Source of the DNA: a virus
Taxonomy: Duplodnaviria; Heunggongvirae; Uroviricota; Caudoviricetes
Reading direction: 5' to 3' (one strand)
Length of the DNA: 31,147 nt
Virus record (IMG/VR): IMGVR_UViG_2671180864_000006
A program made the position numbers and the translations under genes. The notes under the pieces were generated by a model. It did no database searches, was not told the origin of the DNA, and was given only the letters and a program-made list of their open reading frames with translations. Within the stretch, counting starts at the first letter, position 1. Each line of letters starts with the position of its first letter. Positions 4,151-31,147 of the stretch are shown here, piece after piece.

Positions 4151-5128
4151 TTACATTCCTCCCAAGGGATTAAACCTCACCGCATCCTGCAAGTAATCCG
4201 GCGCAAGATGGGCATAAATCATCGTTGTCTGAATCTTTGCGTGCCCCAGAATTTTCTGGAGCGTCAGAATATTGCCGCCGTTCATCATGAAATGACTGGC
4301 GAAGGTGTGGCGCAGCGCATGAACAGCCTGGCCGTCAGGAACATCAGGTGCGACCGTTTTGATGACATCGCGAACCAATGAATAATCCAGCGTCGGAAAC
4401 ACCAGTTTCCCGCCCCGTTTTTTGATCTTTTCAAACAGGCTTTCAGAAATAGGAACGGTACGGTTTTTGCTGTTCTTCGTTTTTGAAAAAGTGATTCGAC
4501 AATGAAGAACACGGCGCTGCTCCAGTGCCGCTACCTCGCCCCATCGCGCCCCGGTCGACAGAAGGATTTCGACGGCCAGCCGTTCATCGGGATTTTCAGC
4601 CAGTGCATCCAGCAACTGAACACATTCAGACTTACTCAGATATCCCATTTCACGCTCGTTAACCTTCATTCCTTTAAGGCCTTGAACGGGGTTATCGTTA
4701 AGAAAATGGCCGGATGAGATGAGTGCGGTAAACATCGCGCTTAACGCCCCAATCTCTCGATTTATGGTGCTGGGCTGTATCCCCTGCTCTATCCTGGACA
4801 CACGTAGCTCGGTGAGCATCGTTGTATTAAGTTTATGCACGCACGGGTCATCCATTGCCTCACTCAAGCGCAGCAATTTAAGGCGCGTGTTATGCCCTGA
4901 CTTCATTAGCTGGCCGTGGTATTTCCACCACAAGTCAATAAGCACTGACAGCGGACGGCGATCAATGGAGTTTCCTTTCCACTCATTGTTATGCTGTTGC
5001 GCCAGCACCCACCGCTCATATAAAACTGCATCCGATTTCGTTTTAAATTTTTTGCGAATGCGTTTGCCTTTACGCCCCTCAGGACGCATGTCAAGAAGAT
5101 ACCCTCCCGGAATTGATTTTATGCTCAT
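4151..5128 (-). CDS. int: P2-type tyrosine integrase
   Basis: Strong similarity to P2 Int as recalled, from MSIKS... onward; catalytic motifs ARWGE, HALRHTFAS and the C-terminal catalytic Tyr region (LGHAKIQTTMIYAHL). The ORF track's 50-aa N-terminal extension (to 5278) is judged spurious. Confidence 0.92.
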   Translation of the reverse strand: MSIKSIPGGYLLDMRPEGRKGKRIRKKFKTKSDAVLYERWVLAQQHNNEWKGNSIDRRPLSVLIDLWWKYHGQLMKSGHNTRLKLLRLSEAMDDPCVHKLNTTMLTELRVSRIEQGIQPSTINREIGALSAMFTALISSGHFLNDNPVQGLKGMKVNEREMGYLSKSECVQLLDALAENPDERLAVEILLSTGARWGEVAALEQRRVLHCRITFSKTKNSKNRTVPISESLFEKIKKRGGKLVFPTLDYSLVRDVIKTVAPDVPDGQAVHALRHTFASHFMMNGGNILTLQKILGHAKIQTTMIYAHLAPDYLQDAVRFNPLGGM

Positions 5129-5177
5129 TCGTGAAGCCCCAGCGTTACAAGACCACCATGCCCCCAGCGTTCCATGA

Positions 5178-5489
5178 TTAGCCGGGCTGTGTGCCAGTCT
5201 TGCGGGATTTTTGAGAAGACGATGTGTTTTCTGGCCCATCAGGGGAGAGAGAAGGACTGATCTGCCCAGCAGCCTCATTTGTTTCGTTACTCATCAACCA
5301 CGTAGTGTATTTTTTAAATTCCGGGTGCATTGTGATTTTCAGTAAAACCTCCGTTCCCACACCTCGAATACCAGTCTCGTATTGCTTAACCGTACCAACC
5401 GCAATACCTATTGAATCCGCGAACTTTGCCTGACTAAGCCCCTCAGATTCTCGAATTGCTTTTAGCTTCTTTGATATCTCTATTGACAT
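5178..5489 (-). CDS. Immunity repressor, P2 C-like (HTH)
   Basis: 104 aa from MSIEISKK; HTH region (LSQAKFADSIGIAVGTVKQYETG) and overall layout resemble P2 C; sits immediately upstream of int on the same strand, as in P2. Confidence 0.75.
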   Translation of the reverse strand: MSIEISKKLKAIRESEGLSQAKFADSIGIAVGTVKQYETGIRGVGTEVLLKITMHPEFKKYTTWLMSNETNEAAGQISPSLSPDGPENTSSSQKSRKTGTQPG

Positions 5490-7923: not shown

Positions 7924-10746
7924 ATGACGGCAGAGTACATCAGGGACTGGCAACAACCGCGCCACGCAGTGGGGCGTGAAGGAACGGGGATCCCCGCTCC
8001 TGAATCCGCGCTTTCCTCCTGGCTGGATGCCCACCGGGCAGAGAACGAGCGCCGCCAGGAAATGGCTGATGCGGCGTTCTCCGCCACGCCACTGGGCAAC
8101 CTGATTAATAAAAGCCTGGACGCACAGGAAAAACAGGACAAAACCATCACACTGGCAGGAGACGCCAGAAAACAGGCACGCGGCGCGGTGGATGAAGCCA
8201 TGGCCTCGCTGCGCCTGCTGCCGTCCTATCTGCGCGATCCGCTTATTCGCCACCTCTCCTTCCTGCGCAAAAAACAGGAAGCCGATCGCCGGAAAGGCAA
8301 AAAGAGCTGGCAGGCGGAACGCTATGCACGCGGAACCCTGCGCAAAATATTCGAACGTCTGGATCGCACTGACGGACACTGGCTGACACCGGGTTATCGC
8401 TCCCTTGCCGGACGTGAACGCCTGGACGATTTGCTTTACCTGCCGCAACTCAACAAACACCAGATACAGACGCTGGCCACCATGACGGCGGCGATGTTCA
8501 GCAGCACCTTCGAAAAACTCTGCGATGGTTTTGGCGCGACTGATGGCGAGCTGACCATGGATGTAACGCTGAAGGCGTATCAGATGCTGGCCCGCATGGC
8601 GTTACACTTACACGCCATGCCTCCGCATTATGACGCACTGACAACAGACAAAGACCGGAGGCACGAACCGGACACAGAACTGCTGCCGGGCGCAATCCTT
8701 CGCCTGACCTGTGCGGAATGGTGGAAACGCAAACTGTGGCTGTTACGTTGCGAGTGGAGAGAAGAACAACTTCGCGCCGCCTGTCTGGTTTCCAGAAAAA
8801 CATCGCCCTATCTGAGCCAGGACGCGTTAAGCGAGTTTCGCGCACAGCGCGAGAAAACACGCGATTTCCTGAAAAGTTTCATGCTGGAAAATGAAGACGG
8901 GTTCACGATTGATCTCGAGACGGTGTATTACGCGGGAGTAAGTAACCCGGTTCACCGTAAGGCAGAAATGATGGCCACCATGAAGGGGCTGGAACTTCTG
9001 GCCGAAGCCCGTGGCGACAAAGCGGTGTTTCTGACTGTCACCTGCCCGTCAAAATACCACGCCACAACGGAGAACGGTCATCCGAATCCCAAATGGAACG
9101 GGGCCACAATGCGCGACTCCAGCGATTACCTGGTTAACACGTTTTTTGCGACGGTCCGCAAAAAACTGAACCGCGACGGCCTGCGCTGGTATGGCATCCG
9201 CACGGCGGAGCCTCACCATGACGGCACCGTGCACTGGCATATGATGGTCTTTGCTCATCCGGAAGAAATCGACACCATTGTGTCCCACACCCGCGATATT
9301 GCCATTCAGGAAGATCGTCACGAGCTGGGCGATGACATAACTCCGCGCTTTAAGGCGGAGTATGTAGACGGCTCAAAAGGCACGCCAACCAGCTACATCG
9401 CCACCTACATCGGGAAAAACCTGGACAGCCGCGCCGTGGATGGCATCGACCCGAAAACGGGCAAGCCACGCGTTGACCACGAAACCGGAAAATCAATGGC
9501 CGAGAGCGTGGAACGCGCCATCGGCTGGGCGCGCCTTCACCGGGTCCGCCAGTTCCAGTTCTTTGGCATCCCCTCCCGCCAGGTATGGCGTGAACTGCGC
9601 CGCCTTGCCAGCCAGATGGCACGCAACCCGGAAGGCCCGCAACGGCTGAAGGATGACGCAATGGATGCGGTTCTTGCCGCCGCTGATGCCGGATGTTTTG
9701 CCACCTACATAGAGAAACAGGGCGGCGTACTTGTTCCACGCAAAGACTACCTGATTCGCACCGCCTACGACCTCGCCGATGAGCTGAACGATTACGGCGA
9801 ACAGAGCGTACAGATTTACGGGATCTGGTCACCACTCATCGGGGAATCCTCCCGTGTGTGCACGCATCCGGATAACTGGAAGCTGGTAAGACGCAAACCG
9901 GAAGCGGAAGACAGCGCCCGCGAAAATGGTTTTGACCTTCAGGGCGGCCCTGCCGCCCCTTGGACTCGTGGCAATAACTGTCCCCGTGTACAGGAAACGG
10001 ACAACAACGGGACAGAACAGCCGGAAGAACGGCCAGCACCGTGGCCGCAGCTCCCTGACGGCGTTGATGTGGATGAATGGATGCGCTCACTGAAACGGCA
10101 CGAACGCCGGGCGCTGATGCGTTCGCTTCGTGACAAACAGGCAAAAAACAGCAGTGATGAAATGCAGAGCTGGACACAGAGCCGCAAACAGCAGCGGCCT
10201 TTGCCTGATAACCACGAATTACTCGCTAAAGAATGGCGGGAGTCTGCTGAATCTCTCGGCCTGCATATCGGTGAACAACAGATGCAGCACCTGTTACGGG
10301 GCGGCAGTCTGTACGTTGACGGCAGCATCATTGCACCGCAGGGATTTGAAATTGTACGCAAACCGGATACCCGCCCGGACAGCCGAATCACGCAGCTCTG
10401 GCAGCGCCTGAGCCGTAATCATGGCGTAAGCAGCACGGAGATCCGCCATAACCCGGTCGCCAGCTATCTGACACAGCTGGGGGCATCAGACCCTGAAGCC
10501 GCCGCACGCCTGGCATCCACACTTCAGCAGGACCAGAACACCATGAAAACACCCGTTACCGTGCTTTCTGACATGCTGCGCGCCATCCGCGACGCAGAGC
10601 ACGCACAGAGAATCAGTGAAACCACTGAACGCGCCCGCCGCAAAGCAGACCTGCTGCGGGGTGGCCTGACCAGTGGAAACAAAAAACAGACAGAAACGGG
10701 ACTCACGAATCCCGTAAATGAGCAAAAAACGCGCAGCGATATATGA
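7924..10746 (+). CDS. A: Replication initiation endonuclease, P2 gpA-like (rolling-circle HUH)
   Basis: 940-aa ORF with HUH motif (GTVHWHMMVFA) and paired-tyrosine motif (SYIATYIGKN); carries a long low-complexity C-terminal region that makes it longer than P2 gpA as recalled. Confidence 0.88.
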   Translation: MTAEYIRDWQQPRHAVGREGTGIPAPESALSSWLDAHRAENERRQEMADAAFSATPLGNLINKSLDAQEKQDKTITLAGDARKQARGAVDEAMASLRLLPSYLRDPLIRHLSFLRKKQEADRRKGKKSWQAERYARGTLRKIFERLDRTDGHWLTPGYRSLAGRERLDDLLYLPQLNKHQIQTLATMTAAMFSSTFEKLCDGFGATDGELTMDVTLKAYQMLARMALHLHAMPPHYDALTTDKDRRHEPDTELLPGAILRLTCAEWWKRKLWLLRCEWREEQLRAACLVSRKTSPYLSQDALSEFRAQREKTRDFLKSFMLENEDGFTIDLETVYYAGVSNPVHRKAEMMATMKGLELLAEARGDKAVFLTVTCPSKYHATTENGHPNPKWNGATMRDSSDYLVNTFFATVRKKLNRDGLRWYGIRTAEPHHDGTVHWHMMVFAHPEEIDTIVSHTRDIAIQEDRHELGDDITPRFKAEYVDGSKGTPTSYIATYIGKNLDSRAVDGIDPKTGKPRVDHETGKSMAESVERAIGWARLHRVRQFQFFGIPSRQVWRELRRLASQMARNPEGPQRLKDDAMDAVLAAADAGCFATYIEKQGGVLVPRKDYLIRTAYDLADELNDYGEQSVQIYGIWSPLIGESSRVCTHPDNWKLVRRKPEAEDSARENGFDLQGGPAAPWTRGNNCPRVQETDNNGTEQPEERPAPWPQLPDGVDVDEWMRSLKRHERRALMRSLRDKQAKNSSDEMQSWTQSRKQQRPLPDNHELLAKEWRESAESLGLHIGEQQMQHLLRGGSLYVDGSIIAPQGFEIVRKPDTRPDSRITQLWQRLSRNHGVSSTEIRHNPVASYLTQLGASDPEAAARLASTLQQDQNTMKTPVTVLSDMLRAIRDAEHAQRISETTERARRKADLLRGGLTSGNKKQTETGLTNPVNEQKTRSDI

Positions 10747-10790
10747 AGCGCGCACAAAACAGGCAAAAACGGGATTTCAGAATCCCGTAA
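10693..10790. promoter_or_regulatory. Two 25-bp palindrome-containing repeats, candidate ParR operator/centromere
   Basis: AAACGGGACTCACGAATCCCGTAAA (about 10695-10719) and AAACGGGATTTCAGAATCCCGTAAA (about 10768-10792); each has 8-bp inverted arms ACGGGAnT/AnTCCCGT; one overlaps the 3' end of A, the other lies about 30 bp upstream of the parM-like start. Confidence 0.45.
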
Positions 10791-10822
10791 ACGATTAATT
10801 AATCAACATAAGGAAAAGCGAC

Positions 10823-11782
10823 ATGAAAATTTGTATCGACGACGGCTCCACCAACATCAAGCTGGCATGGACTGAGAACGGCGAACGCCGCAACGCCATC
10901 AGCCCGAACAGCTTCAAGTCGGAATGGTCTGCGCCGTTCGGTGGCATGCAGCCCGCGAACTACATGCTTGATGGCGTGCGCTATGGTTTTGATCCGGTCA
11001 GCGATCGCTTTGTCCAGACAACCGACACGCAATACCAGTACAGCGATGTAAATGTCATTGCCATTCATCACGCGCTGGTCAAATCAGGCATCACGCCACA
11101 GGAGGTGGATGTGGTTGTCACCCTGCCACTGAGCGAGTATTTCGACACAAACGCACAGCCGGACATGGCCAACATCAACCGCAAAAAAGCGAACGTTATG
11201 CGCCCGGTGGAGTACCAGAACGGCGAAGCATTCACTATCCGTAACGTGCGGGTTATGCCTGAATCCATTCCGGCTGGCTTTAAGGCACTGGCTGACATGA
11301 GTCCGTTTGAATCCCTGCTGATTGTGGATTTGGGCGGAACCACGCTGGATGTGGCAAAGGTTCAGGGGCAACTGGCAGGTATCAGCCAGGTGTTTTGCGA
11401 TCCACACGTAGGCGTTTCTCTGATGGCCGATGCCGTACTGTCGGTGATGGCCACTAACGGTATGCGCACCAGTCACCACATCGCCAATACCATTATCGAA
11501 CATCGCCATGATGAAGCCTGGCTGCGCCAGCACATCCACAATGACGCGCATTACGCCAGCCTGATGGCGGTTATTCGTGAAAAGGAAGAAACACTGAAAC
11601 AACGCGTGATCCGCGCGCTGGCGGGTTTTTCGGGTTACGGGCGGGTGATGGTTGTCGGTGGAGGGGCGGAGATTGTGGCACCCGCTATCCGCGAAGCCTG
11701 CGGAGTTAATGCGACTTTCATCGCGGACGGGGTGCCACAGTTTGCTCTGGTTAATGGGCTGTACGCAATGGACAAGGAGTAA
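10823..11782 (+). CDS. parM: Actin-like segregation ATPase, ParM/StbA family
   Basis: 319-aa ORF with actin-fold phosphate-1 (ICIDDGSTNIKL), phosphate-2 (IVDLGGTTLDV) and adenosine (VMVVGGGAEI) motifs, plus several short blocks matching plasmid R1 ParM as recalled (SPNSFK, YSDVNV, INRKK, LVNGLY). Confidence 0.8.
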   Translation: MKICIDDGSTNIKLAWTENGERRNAISPNSFKSEWSAPFGGMQPANYMLDGVRYGFDPVSDRFVQTTDTQYQYSDVNVIAIHHALVKSGITPQEVDVVVTLPLSEYFDTNAQPDMANINRKKANVMRPVEYQNGEAFTIRNVRVMPESIPAGFKALADMSPFESLLIVDLGGTTLDVAKVQGQLAGISQVFCDPHVGVSLMADAVLSVMATNGMRTSHHIANTIIEHRHDEAWLRQHIHNDAHYASLMAVIREKEETLKQRVIRALAGFSGYGRVMVVGGGAEIVAPAIREACGVNATFIADGVPQFALVNGLYAMDKE

Positions 11783-11786
11783 ACCA

Positions 11787-12098
11787 ATGACGACACCAAC
11801 CAGACGGATAAGTTTCTATCTGAAGCCTGCGGCCGTCAAGAACGAAAGCGAAGCATGCGCCTGGCTGGGCAGCCTTACACCAGAAGCCCGCAAAAGCGGC
11901 CAACGCGTGGCTTTTCTGGCCGGGCTGGCACTTCTGAAAATGAATCCAGCAGAGGCTTACCGACTGGCTGCATGGGCTGACGATGAGGCGTTATCGGTGA
12001 CACAAACCAGGACAGAACGCCCCGTGCCACAGCCAGTACCAACCGCACAGATAACCAGTCAGATAGCAGGGAATATCCGGGCATTATTTCCTGAATGA
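11787..12098 (+). CDS. parR: ParR/StbB-like small DNA-binding adaptor
   Basis: 103 aa from the ATG 5 nt after the parM stop, with AAGGAG RBS; resembles ParR in size and N-terminal pattern (ISFYLKP, RVAFLAGLAL), from memory. The track's 148-aa form overlaps parM and is rejected. Confidence 0.55.
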   Translation: MTTPTRRISFYLKPAAVKNESEACAWLGSLTPEARKSGQRVAFLAGLALLKMNPAEAYRLAAWADDEALSVTQTRTERPVPQPVPTAQITSQIAGNIRALFPE

Positions 12099-12158
12099 CG
12101 AATTTGACGGCTTTTAATTTTATCGGGGTGCACTGTCGCCCCGCACGAGGAAAACACG

Positions 12159-12683
12159 ATGAAAAAATACGAATACATGCTAATGAAAGAAGCACTGCGG
12201 GCTGGTCTGGCTCCCTGTCCTGTATCCGTAGAAGCTGTTGTTGGGAACACGATTTTCCGAACGCTGCGAAATCGCGTATCCGTGAAGATGGTTCACCAAC
12301 CACCCAAATCTACCAGCATGATCTATCTGCCGCTGCCCGAGGCTATCAAACTTATGCGTTCGCTGAAATTTGCGATTTGGATGCAGACACAAATCAACAA
12401 AGCGGTGCAAAACACCTTCGTTAAGAGACTAATACCGGAGCTTGCTGCCAGATGTGCAAAATGTACCAGACCCGCACTTCAATTTGATCTGTCATTGATT
12501 CAACAAGCTACGGAGGCAGAACTGTACCGCCTGTCACCTATCCGTGATGCTCACACGGAAGCATCAGAAATGTTCCGGCTCATGTTTCAATTTAATTTTG
12601 CCGTTCGACGCACACGCGTTCAGGTCAATCGCATGATGCAGGAGCAGGAAGAGTTAACACAGTACAAAGGGGGCAGCCAGTGA
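12159..12683 (+). CDS. Hypothetical protein, accessory-locus cargo
   Basis: 174-aa ORF with GAGGA RBS; no recognisable motifs. Confidence 0.55.
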   Translation: MKKYEYMLMKEALRAGLAPCPVSVEAVVGNTIFRTLRNRVSVKMVHQPPKSTSMIYLPLPEAIKLMRSLKFAIWMQTQINKAVQNTFVKRLIPELAARCAKCTRPALQFDLSLIQQATEAELYRLSPIRDAHTEASEMFRLMFQFNFAVRRTRVQVNRMMQEQEELTQYKGGSQ

Positions 12684-12919
12684 GTAATTCAGCACGACTA
12701 CAGCTTGGTTTTTCACCGCTATCAAAAACCATCGTATTGGCAAAAATGCGTGACTTAGGAGACGGAACAAAACGCCGCGTAGGAAATGATCGCGGTCGCG
12801 ATGTAACCAACGAGGCCGCTCAACTCGTTTGGCATCTAGTCATGGCAGAAGGCGGTGAAATTAATTGGGAGCTGGATGATGGTTCTCGTATGATTTTGAG
12901 GGCCGAGAAGAGTAAATAG
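12680..12919 (+). CDS. Hypothetical small protein, accessory-locus cargo
   Basis: 79-aa ORF; GTG start overlaps the upstream stop (GTGA), indicating translational coupling. Confidence 0.45.
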   Translation: MSNSARLQLGFSPLSKTIVLAKMRDLGDGTKRRVGNDRGRDVTNEAAQLVWHLVMAEGGEINWELDDGSRMILRAEKSK

Positions 12920-12933
12920 CTCAAGGGGGATTA

Positions 12934-13119
12934 ATGCTAAATGATGATGAAGAAGAGCTGCTTATGCAGGAATGGTCGCTCGGTGATTATGATAATGGTG
13001 AAAATGGGTGCCCGCATTGTGGCCGTTATCGTTTATGTATCTGCCAGAATGGAAAACACAGATGTGAAAAGTGCAATTGGTCTCCGGAACTTAATGACTA
13101 CGTGCCGATCGAGTGGTAG
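12934..13119 (+). CDS. Hypothetical Cys-rich zinc-finger-like small protein
   Basis: 61-aa ORF with AAGGGGG RBS; Cys cluster CPHCGRYRLCICQNGKHRCEKC. Confidence 0.5.
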   Translation: MLNDDEEELLMQEWSLGDYDNGENGCPHCGRYRLCICQNGKHRCEKCNWSPELNDYVPIEW

Positions 13120-13159
13120 AGGTAAGTCACACTAGGTGTTTTTTAGTTGATTTTATAAA

Positions 13160-13267
13160 TGCACAATAGTGCACAAATTTGCACAATTTTTTTGAACGAC
13201 TTTTTGCCCTTCCGGCCCGCGTGGCGGCTGGATCCGTCAAGGATCCGTGCATGCACAAAAAAACGCG
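13160..13267. repeat. Helically phased TGCACAA repeats and GGATCCGT direct repeat in the cos-proximal region
   Basis: TGCACAA at 13160, 13170 and 13180 (10-bp period) and again near 13250; GGATCCGT twice (13230-13237, 13241-13248); a GCGTGGCGG motif at about 13219-13227 resembles the start of P2/186-type cohesive ends. Confidence 0.5.
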
Positions 13268-13560
13268 TTTTTTCTGCGCGCAGGTGACGGGGGAACAGCC
13301 CGCGTTTCAGGGGGTAAATAGCATTCCCTGAACGATGTCGCAGAGATACAACAGAATGGCTGTATTTCTCACGCTGAGCGTGAAAAAGACGTGAGGGCTT
13401 TTGATTTGATGGGGTGAAAGGTAAGGCCGTCAAAATCGCACTGAGACGGCGAGAATATGCAGTCAACGAGGTGGGATTGCGTAAGAGTCTGACTGTCGAT
13501 GATGGCAATCAGCAGGAAAGCGTCGTGAAATTATCTGACTGATACAGGAGCTGGAGAGTC

Positions 13561-13583
13561 GGGGCATAAATTTTTTATGCCCC
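13561..13583 (-). terminator. Hairpin downstream of portal gene Q (terminator-like)
   Basis: Near-perfect palindrome GGGGCATAAA-TTT-TTTATGCCCC about 28 nt after the Q stop; no separate U-tract follows, so terminator function is uncertain. Confidence 0.35.
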
Positions 13584-13610
13584 GGCGAAGCAGCAGACAA
13601 GCGAAGCGCG

Positions 13611-14657
13611 TCAGGATGTGGGCTGGGTGTCTAACAGTGCGTAAGGGTTAAAGCGGATCACCTCTTCGCCAAGCCAGTCATTGATGTGCTTCATGGCCTC
13701 CATGACGGGCATCAGCTCGTTAATTGCGTAAACCCGCGCGGCCTTCTCCACATCACCAAACGCACTTTTTTCGCCCGGCATCGCCCCCATCAGTTGCGGC
13801 GGAACGCGGTGCGCAGCCAGCACATCATCACGGGATGCCGCCTTAACATTCATGAACTCATCCTTTGCGGTGATCTGCTGGAACGGCAAAATTTGCACCC
13901 CCTCTTTGCCCCCGTTGGGCGCATGAATGAGCACGTTTTTAAACGCACCACCACCACGTGCCCCCTGTAGCGTTTCTTTCAGGGAGTCCATGCTTTCGCG
14001 GTTTACCTGCGCTGCACCGATGTAGATGATGCACCCGGCGTGGGATCCGTTGTCGTAGTACAGTTTTCTGAACATGTCCGCCGAATGAGAAAGGCTGGCC
14101 GAGAGTAATGCGCCAAGATATTCCGGCATGCCGTAGATTTCCTGGTTAATATCCGGATTCATCAGGTGGCACACTTTGCCAGGACGAAACTGAAACGCAT
14201 CCTTGCCATCCTGCACATACCACCATGATTCAAGATCGCTTCCGCGTCGCATGTATTTCGCCAGGGCGTGCCGTAATTTAAGCGGTTCGCCGAGCATATT
14301 GCTCCGAAGCTCAAGGAATGCGTTACCGAACACAAACCAGTCCAGCGCCAGCGCCGAGAAATCCTGCCGGGAAAGCAGCGGGTGCGGAATATAGCAGCCG
14401 AGCAATACATTGCGCTTAAAGTAAAGCGCAGACTGATGCCAGGACGTTTGCCGGGCAGCTCTTGCCAGACCGTACCAGTCCACCGGGGTTTCATACCACC
14501 GCCCGTTATCAGCACAGTACATATTGTCCAGCAGGTCATGCCCGGTCAGGCGGTAAGGACCATCAAATGTGAATGCACTGAGCGACGATTCTTTCCTGAG
14601 CGCATCAGCGAGATCAATGCGTGAACTCATGCGCACTTTTTTATTTTTTCTGCTCAT
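13611..14657 (-). CDS. Q: Portal protein, P2 gpQ-like
   Basis: 348-aa ORF adjacent to and co-oriented with the terminase large subunit, leftmost gene next to cos as in P2. Confidence 0.85.
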   Translation of the reverse strand: MSRKNKKVRMSSRIDLADALRKESSLSAFTFDGPYRLTGHDLLDNMYCADNGRWYETPVDWYGLARAARQTSWHQSALYFKRNVLLGCYIPHPLLSRQDFSALALDWFVFGNAFLELRSNMLGEPLKLRHALAKYMRRGSDLESWWYVQDGKDAFQFRPGKVCHLMNPDINQEIYGMPEYLGALLSASLSHSADMFRKLYYDNGSHAGCIIYIGAAQVNRESMDSLKETLQGARGGGAFKNVLIHAPNGGKEGVQILPFQQITAKDEFMNVKAASRDDVLAAHRVPPQLMGAMPGEKSAFGDVEKAARVYAINELMPVMEAMKHINDWLGEEVIRFNPYALLDTQPTS

Positions 14658-28117: not shown

Positions 28118-29026
28118 CTCGGCACAAGCGGGGAGAAAATACCGTTACTCAGTACAGCGAATACCTGGACTAATCGACAAACATTCAGCGGTGGCCTTTC
28201 TGGTGAACTATCCGGCAATGCTTCTACAGCTGCAAAATTAAAAACTGCCAGGAAAATAAGCAATGTGGCTTTTGATGGTTCCTCCGATATCACATTAAAA
28301 GCAAGTCATGTTGGTGCGTTTGCCTTAGGGAAAACAGGAAGCACCGTTGCGAATGATAAAGCAGTTGGATGGAACTGGAGTAGCGGAGCCTATAACGCAA
28401 CTATTAGTGGTGCATCAACGTTAATTATTCATTTTTATATGGGAGAAGGAAGTTGTCCTGCAGCTCAGTTTCGGATTAATTATAAAAATGGCGGTATTTT
28501 TTATCGTTCAGCCCGTGATGGTTATGGTTTTGAAGCCGACTGGTCCGAATTTTACACCACCAGAAAACCTTCAGCAGGAGATGTTGGTGCACTGCCGTTA
28601 TCTGGTGGTCAACTGAATGGTGCACTGGGTATCGGAACATCCAGTGCTCTTGGCGGTAATTCGATTGTATTGGGTGATAATGACACGGGCTTTAAACAAA
28701 AAGGCGATGGTAATCTGGATGTTTATGCTAATAACGTCCATGTTATGCGCTTTGTCTCCGGAAGCATTCAAAGTAATAAAACCATAAATATTACGGGACG
28801 TGTTAATCCCTCGGATTACGGTAACTTTGATTCCCGCTATGTGAGAGATGTCAGACTTGGCACACGAGTTGTTTAGACCATGAAGAAAGGCGTGATGTAT
28901 GAAAAATCAGGCCATGTAATCACGGGGCTTGGTATTATCGGTGAAGTCGATGGTGATGATCCGGCAGTATTCAGACCAATACAAAAGTTAATTAACGGAA
29001 CATGGTATAACGTATCGCAGGTATAA
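28100..29026 (+). pseudogene. Promoterless alternative tail-fibre C-terminal cassette with an in-frame amber codon
   Basis: Frame is open from site B (NLGLRELG...) and related to the H C-terminus (KAVGWNW, GIFYRSARDGYGFEADWSEFYTT); TAG at 28874-28876 interrupts it, and the same frame continues to a conserved fibre C-terminus ([11 protein letters not shown]) ending at 29026. Confidence 0.7.
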
Positions 29027-29028
29027 TC

Positions 29029-29562
29029 ATGCAGCATTTAAAAAACATTGTCGCAGGTAATCCAAAAACCGTTGAACAATACCAGCTAACAAAGAATTTT
29101 GATGTTATCTGGTTATGGTCCGAAGATGGAAAAAATTGGCATGAGGAATTAAAAAACTTTCAGGAGGATACAATAAAACTGGCTTACACAGTTGAGGGAA
29201 TAATTATTGCTATAGACAAGGATGTATCAGCAATTAATCCAGAAGGTTTAAGTGTCGTTGAGTTGCCTGATATTACAGCAAATCGCCGGGCTGATATTTC
29301 GGGCAACTGGATGTTCAAAGATGGTGCGGTGATAAAGCGAACTTATACCGAGGAAGAGCAAAGGCAACAAGCGGAAAATGAAAAGCAGAGCCTGCTGCAG
29401 CTCGTCAGGGATAAAACCCAGCTGTGGGACTCTCAGCTACAGCTGGGCATCATTTCCGATGAGAATAAACAAAAATTAACCGAGTGGATGCTCTATGCGC
29501 AGAAGGTCGAATCCACAGACACCTCCAGCCTGCCAGTAACGTTTCCCGAACAACCAGAATGA
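29029..29562 (+). CDS. Tail fibre assembly protein for the second cassette
   Basis: 177-aa paralogue of gpG; C-terminal third is near-identical at the DNA level to G. Confidence 0.8.
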
Positions 29563-29565
29563 AAC

Positions 29566-29592
29566 AAGGCCCGATATCGGGCCTTAATTTTT
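29566..29592 (+). terminator. Hairpin terminator between convergent assembly genes
   Basis: Same AAGGCCCGATATCGGGCCTT palindrome plus AATTTTT as at 27437-27463. Confidence 0.5.
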
Positions 29593-30118
29593 ACTCAGGC
29601 TTTTGTGGCCATTCTGGCTTTGCCGTATCCACACGGCTGACCAGAACACTGTAGCGTTCCCATGCTTCCAGTCGTGTGCGTTCCTCGTCCGTCGCCATAT
29701 TCAGCCTGACAGCGCGTTCCAGCGGCTGGATGACTGATTCAGCTTCGGAAAGCAATGCGGCCTTTTGTGATTCGGCCTGTTGTTGCTGTTCGTCAGCCGT
29801 ATAAATCCGTTTAACCACAGCTCCGTCCTTAAACATCCACTTACCGGAATCATCAGCACGACGATTAGCTGTAATATCAGGAACCTCAACGACGCTATAA
29901 CCTTCAGGGTTAAGCGTGGAGGCATCTTTGGTGATGGCGACAATAATATTATTTGCATCGTAAACAATCTTTATTGTGTCTGGCTGAAAGTTCTTCACTT
30001 CCTCATACCAGTTTTTTCCGTCCTCAGAGTAAAGCCAGATGACTCCGTGCTTCTTTGTTAACTCATACTGCTCCACTGTTTTAGCATTACCTGCTTTTAT
30101 GTTCTTTAAGTGCATCAT
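29591..30118 (-). CDS. Tail fibre assembly protein for the third (inverted) cassette
   Basis: Minus-strand gpG/Tfa homologue starting [11 protein letters not shown]; the track's 11-aa N-terminal extension is probably spurious. Confidence 0.75.
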
Positions 30119-30119
30119 A

Positions 30120-31147
30120 TTAAATACTCGCCACATTATACCAAGTGCCATTTATATACTTTTGCACTGGCCTGTAATGAACGCCTGCAATATTATCGGC
30201 AGAGTTTTTTCCGGTATCCTGTACGTTAATCCCCGTCAGTACATAGCCTGACGGGCACTGAAAATTCCATGTTTGCCAGTTGTTCACTCCATAATATTGC
30301 TGTGAACCAAGTCGAACATCTTTCACATATCTGGAATCAAAATTGCCATAGTTGCCGGGAATAACTTGCGAGCCGCAAAGCCAGTTCCCGTTATTATCCA
30401 TGTACGCCTGACCATCGGTGCCATTGGCTGTCCTTGAGTTATTAATCATGTAGATGCCAAATTGCTTATTTCCCAGACCGCCAATCATAAATTTGCGGTC
30501 GGCATGGTCCTGACGGAGCAAAGCCTGAGCACCATCAGTGGATACCGCATTACGTCCCAAAATAACATTCTGGTCACGCATATGAATCCACATGCCGGTA
30601 CTACTGTTAATTGCAAAACGGTTTGCAAATATATCCCCTGTAACATCAAGACCATGCCCCATGCTTATCCGGCCAGTTCTGAGATTAAGCGTAAAGGGGC
30701 GTAGTGGCCCTATATTACCATTTTCCCCTTCATTCTCTCGTGTAGGGATGATATGCAGGCATTCTTCAGAACGACGAAAAATGGCACCAAAAGATGAATT
30801 AAATATCCTCAGTGCATTGACTGTCGATATTTTCACTTCACTGCTGAAAAGGGCTTCAACAAGAACAGACAAAGCATTCCATTTAAGATTCATCAGGTCT
30901 TTAGGCCGGGTGCCAATGATGCGGTGTCTCCATTTGAAATATTCATTGCCGTTGTTGCCTGTTTCAAACCACATGTAGGAATCGGTGTCTGCATCCGAAT
31001 TATTTTTAAACCCAATCTTTGCCCAGTCAGTATTTCGAATCCAGGCAAGGATTGAGTCGTTTTCAAAAGTAAGTCCACCGGACAACGTATCGCCATTTTT
31101 TTGCACGGCGTTACCAGCCTTGTTTACCGTTTCCTGTAAACCGAGGT
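30120..31147 (-). CDS. Third alternative tail-fibre C-terminal cassette, inverted orientation (partial; open frame leaves the window)
   Basis: Minus-strand ORF ending in a conserved fibre C-terminus ([11 protein letters not shown]); the frame stays open upstream through site C, encoding ...[21 protein letters not shown], the same junction peptide as in H. Confidence 0.75.
31131..31147. promoter_or_regulatory. Crossover site C (gix/pix-like), inverted relative to A and B, cut by the window end
   Basis: TTCCTGTAAACCGAGGT is the reverse complement of the right half of sites A and B. Confidence 0.55.

What the first reader, a model, noticed from the sequence alone, without database searches (positions are those of the whole stretch)
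10693..10790. Paired palindromic 25-bp repeats straddling the gene A stop codon, upstream of parM
Two near-identical elements (AAACGGGA-N-T-N4-GAATCCCGTAAA) lie about 73 bp apart, one inside the last codons of gene A and one in the A-parM intergenic region. Each has 8-bp inverted arms, as expected for a dimeric DNA-binding protein. They are plausible ParR operator or centromere sites, though an RNA hairpin role is also possible. No further copy was seen in the window.
Basis: seen in the sequence. Interest (0 to 1): 0.5.

Follow-up and report, generated by a model that had tools for sequence, protein, structure and literature searches.

The report
Prophage ParMR partition site (parC)
The two palindromic repeats are real and are most likely the DNA sites where the small ParR protein of a P2-like prophage's actin-type (ParM/ParR) segregation cassette binds; this is an expected part of such a system, but with an unusual two-palindrome layout in a prophage carried by about a quarter of complete E. 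coli genomes.

Summary
Two near-identical 25-bp elements sit at 10694-10718 and 10767-10791, 73 bp apart. Each holds an 8-bp-arm palindrome and is the core of a 42-nt direct repeat. The first lies in gene A's last codons and the second in the 76-bp gap before parM.

The window is a P88-like (P2-family) prophage carrying an R1-type parM/parR pair. Cassette-boundary comparisons show that the repeats travel with parMR, not with gene A. Prophages with a different cargo keep gene A but lack both repeats.

Distant parMR cassettes in Hafnia and Plesiomonas P2-like phages keep two CGGGA…CCC sites 72-73 bp apart. In Plesiomonas these sites cannot form a stable hairpin. The ParR N-terminal strand RRISFYL is retained throughout. 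Forty-five distinct sequences show no compensatory stem changes.

The best reading is that each palindrome is two inverted GGGAYT half-sites one helical turn apart, bound by a pair of ParR dimers. The two palindromes lie seven turns apart on one DNA face. Together they form a minimal parC centromere and probably an operator.

ParR binding is inferred, not shown. This is a new architectural variant of a known kind, and interest is moderate.

The parts
10680..10721 (.). Repeat unit 1 (42 nt): an A-rich left flank plus palindrome 1. It lies inside the last 22 codons of gene A.
   Evidence: Direct-repeat family D1, 81% identity. The left flank 10680-10695 is almost invariant among 78 loci (pi 0.005). 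Homology with L031, which has a different upstream ORF, starts at about 10676.
10696..10715 (.). Palindrome 1, ACGGGACT-CACG-AATCCCGT. It consists of two inverted half-sites GGGAYT (10698-10703 on top, 10708-10713 on the bottom strand) with centres 10 bp apart.
   Evidence: The majority allele T10702 makes the arms perfect. The loop is hypervariable (pi 0.10) and the GGGA/TCCC core is less variable (0.026) than the neutral proxy of 0.06.
10722..10752 (.). Central 31-bp spacer between the two units. It contains the gene A stop codon (10744-10746) and a small GC-rich inverted repeat, CGCGC-N13-GCGCG (10730-10752).
   Evidence: It is replaced by a different sequence of the same length in three haplotypes. 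Its length is kept, so the palindrome spacing is 73 bp in 38 of 39 paired occurrences.
10753..10794 (.). Repeat unit 2 (42 nt) in the gene A-parM intergenic region.
   Evidence: AAAACAGGCAAAAACGGGATTT is identical in Hafnia.
10769..10788 (.). Palindrome 2, ACGGGATT-TCAG-AATCCCGT, with perfect 8-bp arms.
   Evidence: It is retained alone in the IS-disrupted locus L042.
10794..10803 (+). ATTAATTAAT, a tentative -10 element of a weak parM promoter whose -35 region would fall inside palindrome 2.
   Evidence: This is the best but weak sigma-70 score in the leader (-35 TTCAGA at 10776, -10 ATTAAT at 10798). The strict scan found none. ATTAAT is conserved in E. coli, Hafnia and Plesiomonas.
10810..10814 (+). 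Shine-Dalgarno sequence AAGGA of parM.
   Evidence: Read directly from the sequence. It is invariant in 45 distinct sequences.
10823..11782 (+). parM, the actin-like segregation ATPase (319 aa).
   Evidence: Pfam StbA_N 2.7e-82 and ParM C-terminal domain 1.3e-68. R1 ParM 1MWK at 8.5e-93. Intact in 81 of 83 loci with pN/pS about 0.08.
11787..12098 (+). parR, the 103-aa adaptor protein of the Plasmid_stab_B family (presumed ribbon-helix-helix).
   Evidence: PF10784 at 2e-23. The profile hits pB171 ParR/StbB 2JD3 at E 1e-3. The N-terminal MxxPTRRISFYLKP and the C-terminal NIxxxFP are invariant across alleles that are only 42-74% identical overall.
7924..10746 (+). Gene A (replication endonuclease, 940 aa). 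It is context only. Its last ~22-33 codons (from about 10647-10680 to the stop at 10744-10746) are supplied by the par cassette.
   Evidence: Pfam Phage_GPA 6.6e-131. Gene A in L096 and L097 diverges after about 10646 and ends without the repeats.

Best explanation
The two repeat units are proposed to be the cis-acting site (parC) of a self-contained parC-parM-parR cassette, about 10650/10676 to 12098. The cassette is carried as cargo between gene A and the portal gene of a P88-like, P2-family prophage.

Proposed mechanism (inferred):
- ParR, a ribbon-helix-helix dimer, uses its N-terminal strand (RRISFYL) to read a GGGAYT half-site.
- Each palindrome presents two inverted half-sites with centres 10 bp apart, so it would bind a pair of dimers on one face of the helix.
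- The two palindromes are 73 bp apart, which is 7.0 turns. This puts both complexes on the same face and would allow a compact ParR-DNA complex that captures the ends of ParM filaments, i.e. a centromere.
- Because palindrome 2 overlaps the -35 region of the only promoter-like element in the leader, the same binding probably also represses parMR (operator).

Shown here:
- the repeats exist and are not due to chance;
- the adjacent genes are R1-type ParM and ParR;
- the repeats are co-inherited with parMR;
- motif and spacing are conserved across genera;
- there is no RNA-type covariation.

Inferred only: ParR binding, its stoichiometry, and centromere and operator activity.
For: 1. Identity of the proteins. 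ParM and ParR match the R1/pB171 families. parM is under strong purifying selection, with pN/pS 0.08, and is intact in 81 of 83 loci.

2. Cassette test.
- E. coli prophages L096 and L097 carry an AAA-ATPase plus S8-peptidase cargo instead of parMR. They share gene A up to about 10646 and then diverge, with no palindromes.
- In L031 a different 155-aa ORF precedes the cassette. Homology starts at about 10676, and that ORF reads through copy 1.
- Homology to P88-type phages ends at the parR stop.
- The roughly 150 bp holding the repeats (about 10650/10676 to 10822) is therefore the only stretch of the cassette outside parM and parR; its first part doubles as the gene A tail.

3. Conservation across genera.
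- Hafnia (ParR 74% identical) keeps both palindromes 73 bp apart.
- Plesiomonas (ParM 63%, ParR 36%) has two copies of GCGGGACAAC-N4-AACCC 72 bp apart. The first again lies in the last codons of gene A. These copies keep the same CGGGA…CCC frame but have only a 4-bp stem.
- Enterobacter and Serratia cassettes have an inverted pair that starts with AAACGGGAA.

4. Link between protein and motif. CGGGA lies 119-132 nt upstream of parM in all five phage lineages whose ParR strand is R(R/K)ISFYL. It is absent from the 200 nt upstream of parM in four plasmid systems with other strands, including an R1-type one.

5. Invariant strand, invariant arms. The ParR N-terminal strand does not change even between alleles 54% identical overall, and the palindrome arms are the same in those loci.

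6. Specificity of the pair. All 39 paired occurrences found in IMG/VR are spaced 72-73 bp. At least 38 of them lie within 400 nt of a parM at least 90% identical.

7. Precedents from papers.
- R1 parC has two repeat blocks flanking a spacer and is bound by ParR dimers (PMC2241845).
- SXT/R391 srpC has four direct and inverted repeats. Pairs of them are bound, single half-sites are not (PMC4489591).
Against: - No binding or stabilisation experiment exists, and none was found in the searchable literature.
- Within E. coli, nucleotide diversity in the arms (0.03-0.07) is not clearly below the synonymous level (about 0.06). Only the GGGA/TCCC core is lower, at 0.026, and that rests on few sites.
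- There are only four clear half-sites, against ten iterons in R1. Whether this suffices to cap a ParM filament is unknown.
- No convincing sigma-70 promoter lies between or beside the repeats, so the operator role is weakly supported and parMR may be read through from gene A.
- The ParR monomer model was of low confidence (pLDDT 55.6), so the fold rests on sequence homology alone.
- 1532 of 1534 occurrences in complete E. coli genomes are chromosomal. What a centromere does for an integrated element is unclear.
- The Regiella relative with a similar ParR strand lacks a clear CGGGA site.
Confidence: 0.75

Rival explanations
1. ParR binds the palindromes, but only as an autoregulatory operator. 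In an integrated prophage the system no longer segregates DNA, or ParM has been put to another use, so the sites are not a centromere.
For: - Almost all copies are chromosomal.
- There are only four half-sites.
- Palindrome 2 overlaps the -35 region of the best promoter-like element.
- Chromosomal ParMR systems put to other roles are reported in paper abstracts listed (PMC12270681; bioRxiv 10.1101/2025.06.27.661541).
Against: - An operator needs only the promoter-proximal site. Yet the distal site, inside gene A, and the 72-73 bp spacing are both conserved from E. coli to Plesiomonas.
- The ParR C-terminal tail NIxxxFP stays conserved. By analogy with R1 ParR this is the presumed ParM-binding peptide (from general knowledge, not checked here).
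- parM is under strong purifying selection.
- A whole P88-like phage exists as a 34.4-kb circular record.
Confidence: 0.12
2. The palindromes act as RNA or DNA hairpins. For example, they could be tandem intrinsic terminators for leftward (minus-strand) transcription, or a structure in the gene A-parM mRNA.
For: - On the minus strand both hairpins are followed by T-rich tails and are picked up by the terminator scan.
- The region folds better than shuffles, with z -4.3 on the plus strand and -3.4 on the minus strand.
- Some variants in palindrome 2 keep G-U pairs on the plus strand.
Against: - None of 16 pairs shows a compensatory change, and covariation is not above shuffles in 45 distinct sequences.
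- Changes are one-sided and often parallel in both copies. Examples are CGGGA to CAGGA in L031, and loss of the T of AATCCC in L018 and L063.
- The variants favour no single strand.
- The Plesiomonas sites keep motif and spacing but have only a 4-bp stem with a 10-nt loop.
- No minus-strand gene ends there.
- There is no Rfam match.
Confidence: 0.04
3. The sites belong to gene A or to replication, for example as an origin or nick-site hairpin for the rolling-circle endonuclease. Alternatively they bind another phage or host protein.
For: - Copy 1 lies inside the 3' end of gene A in both E. coli and Plesiomonas.
- HUH endonucleases often act at hairpins, and the P2 origin lies within gene A. 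Both points are from general knowledge and were not checked here.
Against: - P88-like prophages with an intact, closely related gene A but a different cargo lack both repeats.
- In L031, L099 and L100 other genes separate gene A from the repeats, which stay next to parM.
- In IMG/VR, paired occurrences were found only at par cassettes; at least 38 of 39 lie within 400 nt of parM, and the matches in unrelated contigs were all single.
Confidence: 0.05
4. The repeats are a functionless duplication or recombination scar at the cassette junction.
For: - Arm diversity within E. coli is close to neutral.
- The cassette boundary lies just to the left of unit 1.
Against: - The two-site architecture and the 72-73 bp spacing persist at ParM 63% and ParR 36% identity, where the spacer can no longer be aligned.
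- Loops vary several-fold more than the cores.
Confidence: 0.03

Closest known systems
parC of plasmid R1 (type II ParMRC partition locus)
   Same: - It lies directly upstream of parM-parR. The phage ParM matches R1 ParM 1MWK at E 8.5e-93 and is 47% identical to an R1-type plasmid ParM. ParR belongs to the same Pfam family, PF10784.
- It is bipartite, with two repeat blocks flanking a central spacer (PMC2241845).
- It is A-rich on the top strand, with G/C triplets (GGG/CCC) at about one-turn phasing, as seen in the R1-type locus L011.
- In R1 the site serves as both centromere and operator.
   Different: - R1 has 2 x 5 direct 11-bp iterons and a 39-bp spacer that holds the promoter, 159 bp in all. 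Here there are 2 x 42-nt units, each with one palindrome (two inverted half-sites), and a 31-bp spacer with no recognisable promoter, 115 bp in all.
- The ParR recognition strand differs: RRISFYL here, RRTIAFKL in R1.
- The host element is an integrating P2-like phage, and unit 1 overlaps the coding end of gene A.
srpC of the srpMRC locus in SXT/R391 integrative conjugative elements (PMC4489591)
   Same: - A type II partition locus on an element that normally sits in the chromosome.
- The centromere-like region upstream of the actin-like gene has four short repeats in direct and inverted orientation.
- Pairs of repeats within about 40 bp are bound by the adaptor, single half-sites are not.
- The proposed role is in the transient excised circular form.
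   Different: - SrpR has no detectable homology to ParR proteins, as that paper states.
- The repeats are 13 bp with a different sequence.
- The element is conjugative, not a phage.
Operators of ribbon-helix-helix repressors and adaptors bound by dimer pairs, such as Arc, CopG, omega of pSM19035 and pSK41 ParR (from general knowledge, not checked here)
   Same: Short half-sites about one helical turn apart, in inverted or direct orientation, each read by the two-stranded sheet of one dimer. Binding of adjacent dimers is cooperative.
   Different: No structure or binding data exist for this ParR. The half-site GGGAYT and the two-palindrome arrangement seven turns apart are specific to this cassette.
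AlpAC of the Corynebacterium glutamicum prophage CGP3 (abstract of PMC4446434, listed)
   Same: A prophage-encoded actin-like protein, linked in that paper to efficient viral DNA replication. It is a precedent for a role in the phage life cycle rather than in plasmid inheritance.
   Different: It is a different actin-like family, and the host is Gram-positive. No sequence relationship was tested here.

Membership tests
Type II (ParMRC) partition locus | An actin-like ATPase ParM is encoded next to the site. | tested here: met
   Pfam StbA_N 2.7e-82 and ParM C-terminal domain 1.3e-68. R1 ParM 1MWK at 8.5e-93 over residues 2-316.
Type II (ParMRC) partition locus | A small ParR adaptor of the ribbon-helix-helix type is encoded downstream of parM. 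| tested here: met
   PF10784 Plasmid_stab_B at 2e-23. The profile hits pB171 ParR/StbB 2JD3 at E 1e-3. The fold itself was not confirmed, because the AF2 monomer model had pLDDT 55.6.
Type II (ParMRC) partition locus | Repeated cis sites lie upstream of parM and are inherited together with parMR. | tested here: met
   Two 42-nt units. Cassette boundaries at about 10646/10676 and 12098. Two-site architecture conserved in Hafnia and Plesiomonas.
Type II (ParMRC) partition locus | ParR binds the repeats specifically and cooperatively. | not testable with these tools
   Only indirect support. CGGGA is present upstream of parM in 5 of 5 phage lineages with the R(R/K)ISFYL strand and in 0 of 4 plasmid systems with other strands.
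Type II (ParMRC) partition locus | The locus stabilises an unstable replicon in cis. | not testable with these tools
   No experiment was found in the literature.
R1-type parC architecture | Two clusters of five direct 11-bp iterons flank the par promoter. | tested here: not met
   Each unit has one palindrome plus an A-rich flank, and there are only four clear half-sites. No promoter was found in the 31-bp spacer. The R1-type locus L011 shows the classical iterons for comparison.
Intrinsic (rho-independent) terminator, minus strand | A stable GC-rich hairpin followed by a U-run, at the end of a transcription unit and kept by compensatory changes. | tested here: not met
   The shape is present in E. 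coli. However, no minus-strand gene ends there, 0 of 16 pairs covary, and the hairpin is lost in Plesiomonas while the motif and spacing are kept.
Rolling-circle origin or gene A protein site | The site is inherited with the replication gene. | tested here: not met
   L096 and L097 have an intact, closely related gene A without the repeats. In L031, L099 and L100 the repeats stay with parM although another gene separates them from gene A.
Known RNA families (Rfam) | A match to a curated covariance model. | tested here: not met
   No match at E up to 1 in 10000-13700.

The most novel reading that the evidence does not exclude
P88-like P2-family phages are present in about a quarter of complete E. 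coli genomes. On this reading they use a complete, minimal ParMRC machine on their own DNA when it is extrachromosomal.

Two forms of this are possible:
- the machine keeps the excised or not-yet-integrated circle in both daughter cells, making these phages facultative phage-plasmids;
- it spaces and positions replicating genomes during lytic growth.

In either case the two-palindrome site, partly built into the end of the replication gene, would be the smallest natural type II centromere known.
Probability: 0.3. Interest if true: 0.7.

Novelty: new variant of a known kind. Interest (0 to 1): 0.45.

Why it matters
- A parC upstream of parM is expected, so the existence of these sites is not surprising.
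- The layout is noteworthy. It has two palindromes seven helical turns apart instead of ten direct iterons. It overlaps the 3' end of the replication gene. It is conserved from E. coli to Plesiomonas.
- The host element is also unusual: an integrating P2-like prophage found in 1372 of 5426 complete E. coli genomes, almost always in the chromosome.
- The par system of these phages appears to be annotated but unstudied.
- A defined 115-bp candidate site with four half-sites makes its function directly testable. The same experiments would show why an integrating phage keeps an actin-like segregation machine under strong purifying selection.

Tried and rejected
- **RNA family search:** Rfam found nothing.
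- **Promoter search:** the strict scan found none. A weight-matrix scan found only a weak candidate.
- **R1-like array of phased AAAC iterons across 10680-10794:** the AAAAC motifs are phased about 10 bp apart, but the rightmost ones are not conserved in Hafnia. I kept this only as a possible accessory flank.
- **The 26-aa mini-ORF 10718-10798:** it reads copy 2 in the same frame in which gene A reads copy 1. It has no Shine-Dalgarno sequence, is broken by a 1-bp insertion in L090, L091 and L093, and is absent in Plesiomonas. I rejected it as coding.
- **The central GC-rich stem 10730-10752:** one compensatory change in 45 sequences, not above shuffles.
- **Close plasmid relatives of the phage ParR:** none in PLSDB apart from prophages inside 'plasmid' records.
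- **Collection scans for distant ParRs:** the metagenome and viral scans found nothing. The loci were reached instead through a second protein search plus contig look-ups.
- **AlphaFold2 model of the ParR monomer:** too poor to use, so no fold search was run.
- **Gene A C-terminal tblastn against phages:** it gave no sharp boundary. The E. coli genome search did.
- **Weak palindrome-like hits at 28793-28837:** these are a coding tandem repeat in a tail-fibre gene and are unrelated.
Full report
**1. The observation**

The region reads ...CAAAAAACAGACAGAAACGGGACTCACGAATCCCGTAAATGA... (10680-10721) and ...CACAAAACAGGCAAAAACGGGATTTCAGAATCCCGTAAACGA... (10753-10794).
- The repeat finder reports these as one 42-nt direct-repeat family at 81% identity with 73-bp spacing. 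Each copy contains a palindrome, ACGGGAyT-N4-AATCCCGT, at 10696-10715 and 10769-10788.
The written consensus has one N too many.
- Copy 1 has one arm mismatch (C10702) in this window. Most relatives have T there.
- Gene A (7924-10746) stops at 10744-10746, so copy 1 is in its last codons. Copy 2 lies in the 76-bp gap before parM at 10823.
- No other copy exists in the window. The exact half-site ACGGGATT occurs three times, all within the palindromes.
- None of 2000 dinucleotide-preserving shuffles of 10640-10822 gave two such palindromes or an equally good direct repeat.

**2. Context**

- From about 5914 onwards the window is a P88-like (Xuanwuvirus, P2-family) prophage, 94-96% identical to phages P88, phiSM and others. 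An integrase gene lies at 4151-5278.
- Gene A is a Phage_GPA replication endonuclease. The next gene is a ParM and the one after it a 103-aa Plasmid_stab_B protein, i.e. ParR.
- ParM matches R1 ParM structures at 8.5e-93. A ParR profile hits the pB171 ParR/StbB structure 2JD3 at E 1e-3.
- The gene A-parM junction occurs in 1372 of 5426 complete E. coli genomes, and 1532 of 1534 places are chromosomal.
- One PLSDB record (NZ_CP148288.1) is a complete 34.4-kb circular copy of such a phage, integrase included.
- parM is intact in 81 of 83 related loci, with pN/pS about 0.08.
- I found no paper that studies this par system. Two papers on P88 and phiSM only list the partition gene or do not mention it.

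**3. The repeats belong to the par cassette, not to gene A**

Three natural variants mark the boundaries.
- In E. coli chromosomes L096 and L097 the same prophage type carries an AAA-ATPase and an S8 peptidase in place of parMR. Gene A is homologous up to about window 10646, then diverges and ends with no palindromes.
- In L031 gene A ends earlier and a 155-aa ORF precedes the cassette. Homology starts at about 10676, and that unrelated ORF reads through copy 1, acquiring the same tail ...KTGFTNPVNEQKTRSDI.
- Homology to P88-type phages that carry different downstream cargo stops at the parR stop codon, 12098.

The cassette is thus about 10650/10676 to 12098. The roughly 150 bp holding the repeats (about 10650/10676 to 10822) is the only part outside parM and parR; its first part doubles as the gene A tail. 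This also argues against a replication-origin or gene A protein site.

**4. Deep conservation of motif and spacing**

- A Hafnia relative (ParR 74% identical, ParM 94%) keeps both palindromes: GGGATTCATGAATCCC and GGGATTTGAAAATCCC. The GGGA-to-GGGA spacing is 73 bp, although the outer C-G pair is lost in both.
- An exhaustive profile search, followed by a second word-index search, found more distant ParRs that share the N-terminal strand R(R/K)ISFYL(K/N)P.
- Their genes again lie between gene A and the portal gene of P2-like phages in Plesiomonas, Enterobacter and Serratia.
- In Plesiomonas (ParM 63%, ParR 36%) the strongest repeat upstream of parM is GCGGGACAACA(A/C)(A/T)AACCC..., present twice, 72 bp apart. 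The first copy again lies in the last codons of gene A.
- Aligned to the E. coli palindrome, it keeps CGGGA at positions 2-6 and CCC at positions 16-18. It has only a 4-bp stem and a 10-nt loop.
- Enterobacter and Serratia have an inverted pair, AAAC-GGGAA(C/T)GA(T/A)ATAGAAAA / TTTTCTATTT(T/C)GTTCCC.
- CGGGA lies 119-132 nt upstream of parM in all five of these lineages. It is absent from the 200 nt upstream of parM in four plasmid systems whose ParR strand differs (RKCSFYIY, RRCSFELF, RRTIAFKL).
- Within E. coli, ParR alleles only 54% identical overall have an identical N-terminal strand and identical palindrome arms.
- In IMG/VR all 39 paired occurrences of CGGGATT-N4-AATCCCG are 72-73 bp apart, and at least 38 lie within 400 nt of a parM at least 90% identical. 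About 40 single hits have unrelated flanks, which I take to be chance matches given only 14 specified bases.

**5. Hairpin or protein site?**

- On the minus strand both palindromes look like terminators, and the region folds better than shuffles.
- Across 45 distinct sequences, however, none of the 16 stem pairs shows a compensatory change, and covariation does not exceed shuffles.
- Changes are one-sided and often parallel in both copies. CGGGA becomes CAGGA in both copies of L031. The T of AATCCC is lost in both copies of L018 and L063. CCCGT becomes CCCA(A/T) in both copies in Hafnia.
- Wobble-compatible variants favour neither strand consistently.
- The Plesiomonas sites cannot form a stable hairpin.
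- No minus-strand gene ends here, and Rfam has no match.
- This pattern fits double-stranded sites read by a protein, with concerted change between copies. It does not fit a selected stem.

**6. Proposed mechanism (inferred)**

- The half-site is GGGAYT. Within a palindrome the two half-site centres are 10 bp apart, and the two palindrome centres (10705.5 and 10778.5) are 73 bp apart, or 7.0 turns.
- A ribbon-helix-helix ParR dimer on each half-site would give a dimer pair per palindrome, with both pairs on one DNA face.
- This resembles the bipartite R1 parC, which has two ParR-coated blocks and an unbound spacer folding into a U shape (PMC2241845). It also resembles the four-repeat srpC of SXT/R391 elements, where repeat pairs bind but half-sites do not (PMC4489591).
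- I therefore read the 115-bp segment 10680-10794 as a minimal parC.
- An operator role is plausible but weak. The only promoter-like element (-35 TTCAGA at 10776, -10 ATTAAT at 10798) scores poorly and was missed by the strict scan. However, ATTAAT is conserved in E. coli, Hafnia and Plesiomonas, and its -35 region would fall inside palindrome 2.
- Otherwise parMR may be read through from gene A, since the scan found no plus-strand terminator-like site between the two genes.

**7. Weak points**

- Nothing here shows binding.
- Arm diversity within E. coli (0.03-0.07) is close to the synonymous level of about 0.06. Only the GGGA/TCCC core (0.026) and the unit-1 left flank (0.005, which is also coding) are lower, while the loops are higher at 0.10-0.21.
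- The AlphaFold2 monomer model of ParR was poor (pLDDT 55.6).
- Four half-sites may or may not be enough for a filament-capping complex.
- The biological role of a centromere in a mostly integrated element is unknown. Precedents exist in SXT/R391 elements, where it acts on the excised circle (PMC4489591), and in the CGP3 prophage, where an actin-like protein aids viral DNA replication (PMC4446434 abstract).

**8. Verdict**

I read the repeats as the parC of a type II ParMRC cassette. It is a known kind of element in a new architectural variant and an unusual host, and it appears to be undescribed in the literature I could search. Interest is moderate, at 0.45. The more novel question is what the cassette does for an integrating phage, and the sites defined here make that question testable.

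Noticed in passing
window 11787-12098 (parR); breakpoint near 11841: parR is mosaic. Some P88-like phages lose DNA similarity at about codon 18 of parR (query position 1442). Their ParR is only about 54% identical overall, but the N-terminal 14 residues and the C-terminal NIRALFPE are kept. parM and parC stay about 97-99% identical.
   Followed up: partly
window 10647-13600; loci L096, L097, L099, L100, L003: The slot between gene A and the portal gene is a cargo hot spot. It holds parMR here, an AAA-ATPase plus S8 peptidase in L096 and L097 (possibly a defence system), a Dam-like methyltransferase before parMR in L099 and L100, a Fic protein after parR in L100, and an Rrf2 regulator in L003.
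   Followed up: partly
window 10718-10798: A 26-aa mini-ORF (MSKKRAAIYEARTKQAKTGFQNPVND) reads copy 2 in the same frame in which gene A reads copy 1. It is kept with the same ends in Hafnia. However, it lacks a Shine-Dalgarno sequence, is frameshifted in L090, L091 and L093, and is absent in Plesiomonas. It is probably not coding.
   Followed up: yes
window 10730-10752: A small GC-rich inverted repeat, CGCGC-N13-GCGCG, has the gene A stop codon in its loop. L023 shows one C-G to T-A double change and six sequences have the U-G intermediate, but this is not above shuffles. Three haplotypes replace the loop with a different sequence of equal length.
   Followed up: yes
PLSDB record NZ_CP148288.1 (locus L095): A complete P88-like phage, including integrase, cox, parMR and the structural genes, is deposited as a 34,461-bp circular 'plasmid' of an E. 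coli isolate from a cat. This may be an excised or episomal form captured by assembly.
   Followed up: partly
window 28790-28840 and 29029-30151: A 25-bp tandem repeat (ATTACGGGACGTGTTAATCCCTCGG / ATTACGGTAACTTTGATTCCCGCTA) lies inside a tail-fibre C-terminal gene and weakly resembles the palindrome at 2 mismatches each. It is coding and looks unrelated. Just downstream, two tail-fibre assembly genes face each other (29029-29562 on plus, 29591-30151 on minus), which suggests an invertible or alternative tail-fibre segment.
   Followed up: partly
window 12159-13119: Three small plus-strand ORFs lie between parR and the portal gene: 174 aa with no Pfam hit, 79 aa matching DUF7446, and 61 aa with a weak zinc-ribbon match. 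They lie outside the region shared with P88 and are further variable cargo.
   Followed up: no
locus L042 (IMG/VR): An IS66-type insertion lies immediately upstream of palindrome 2. It removes unit 1, and parM is frameshifted in the same locus. This is a decayed copy of the cassette.
   Followed up: partly
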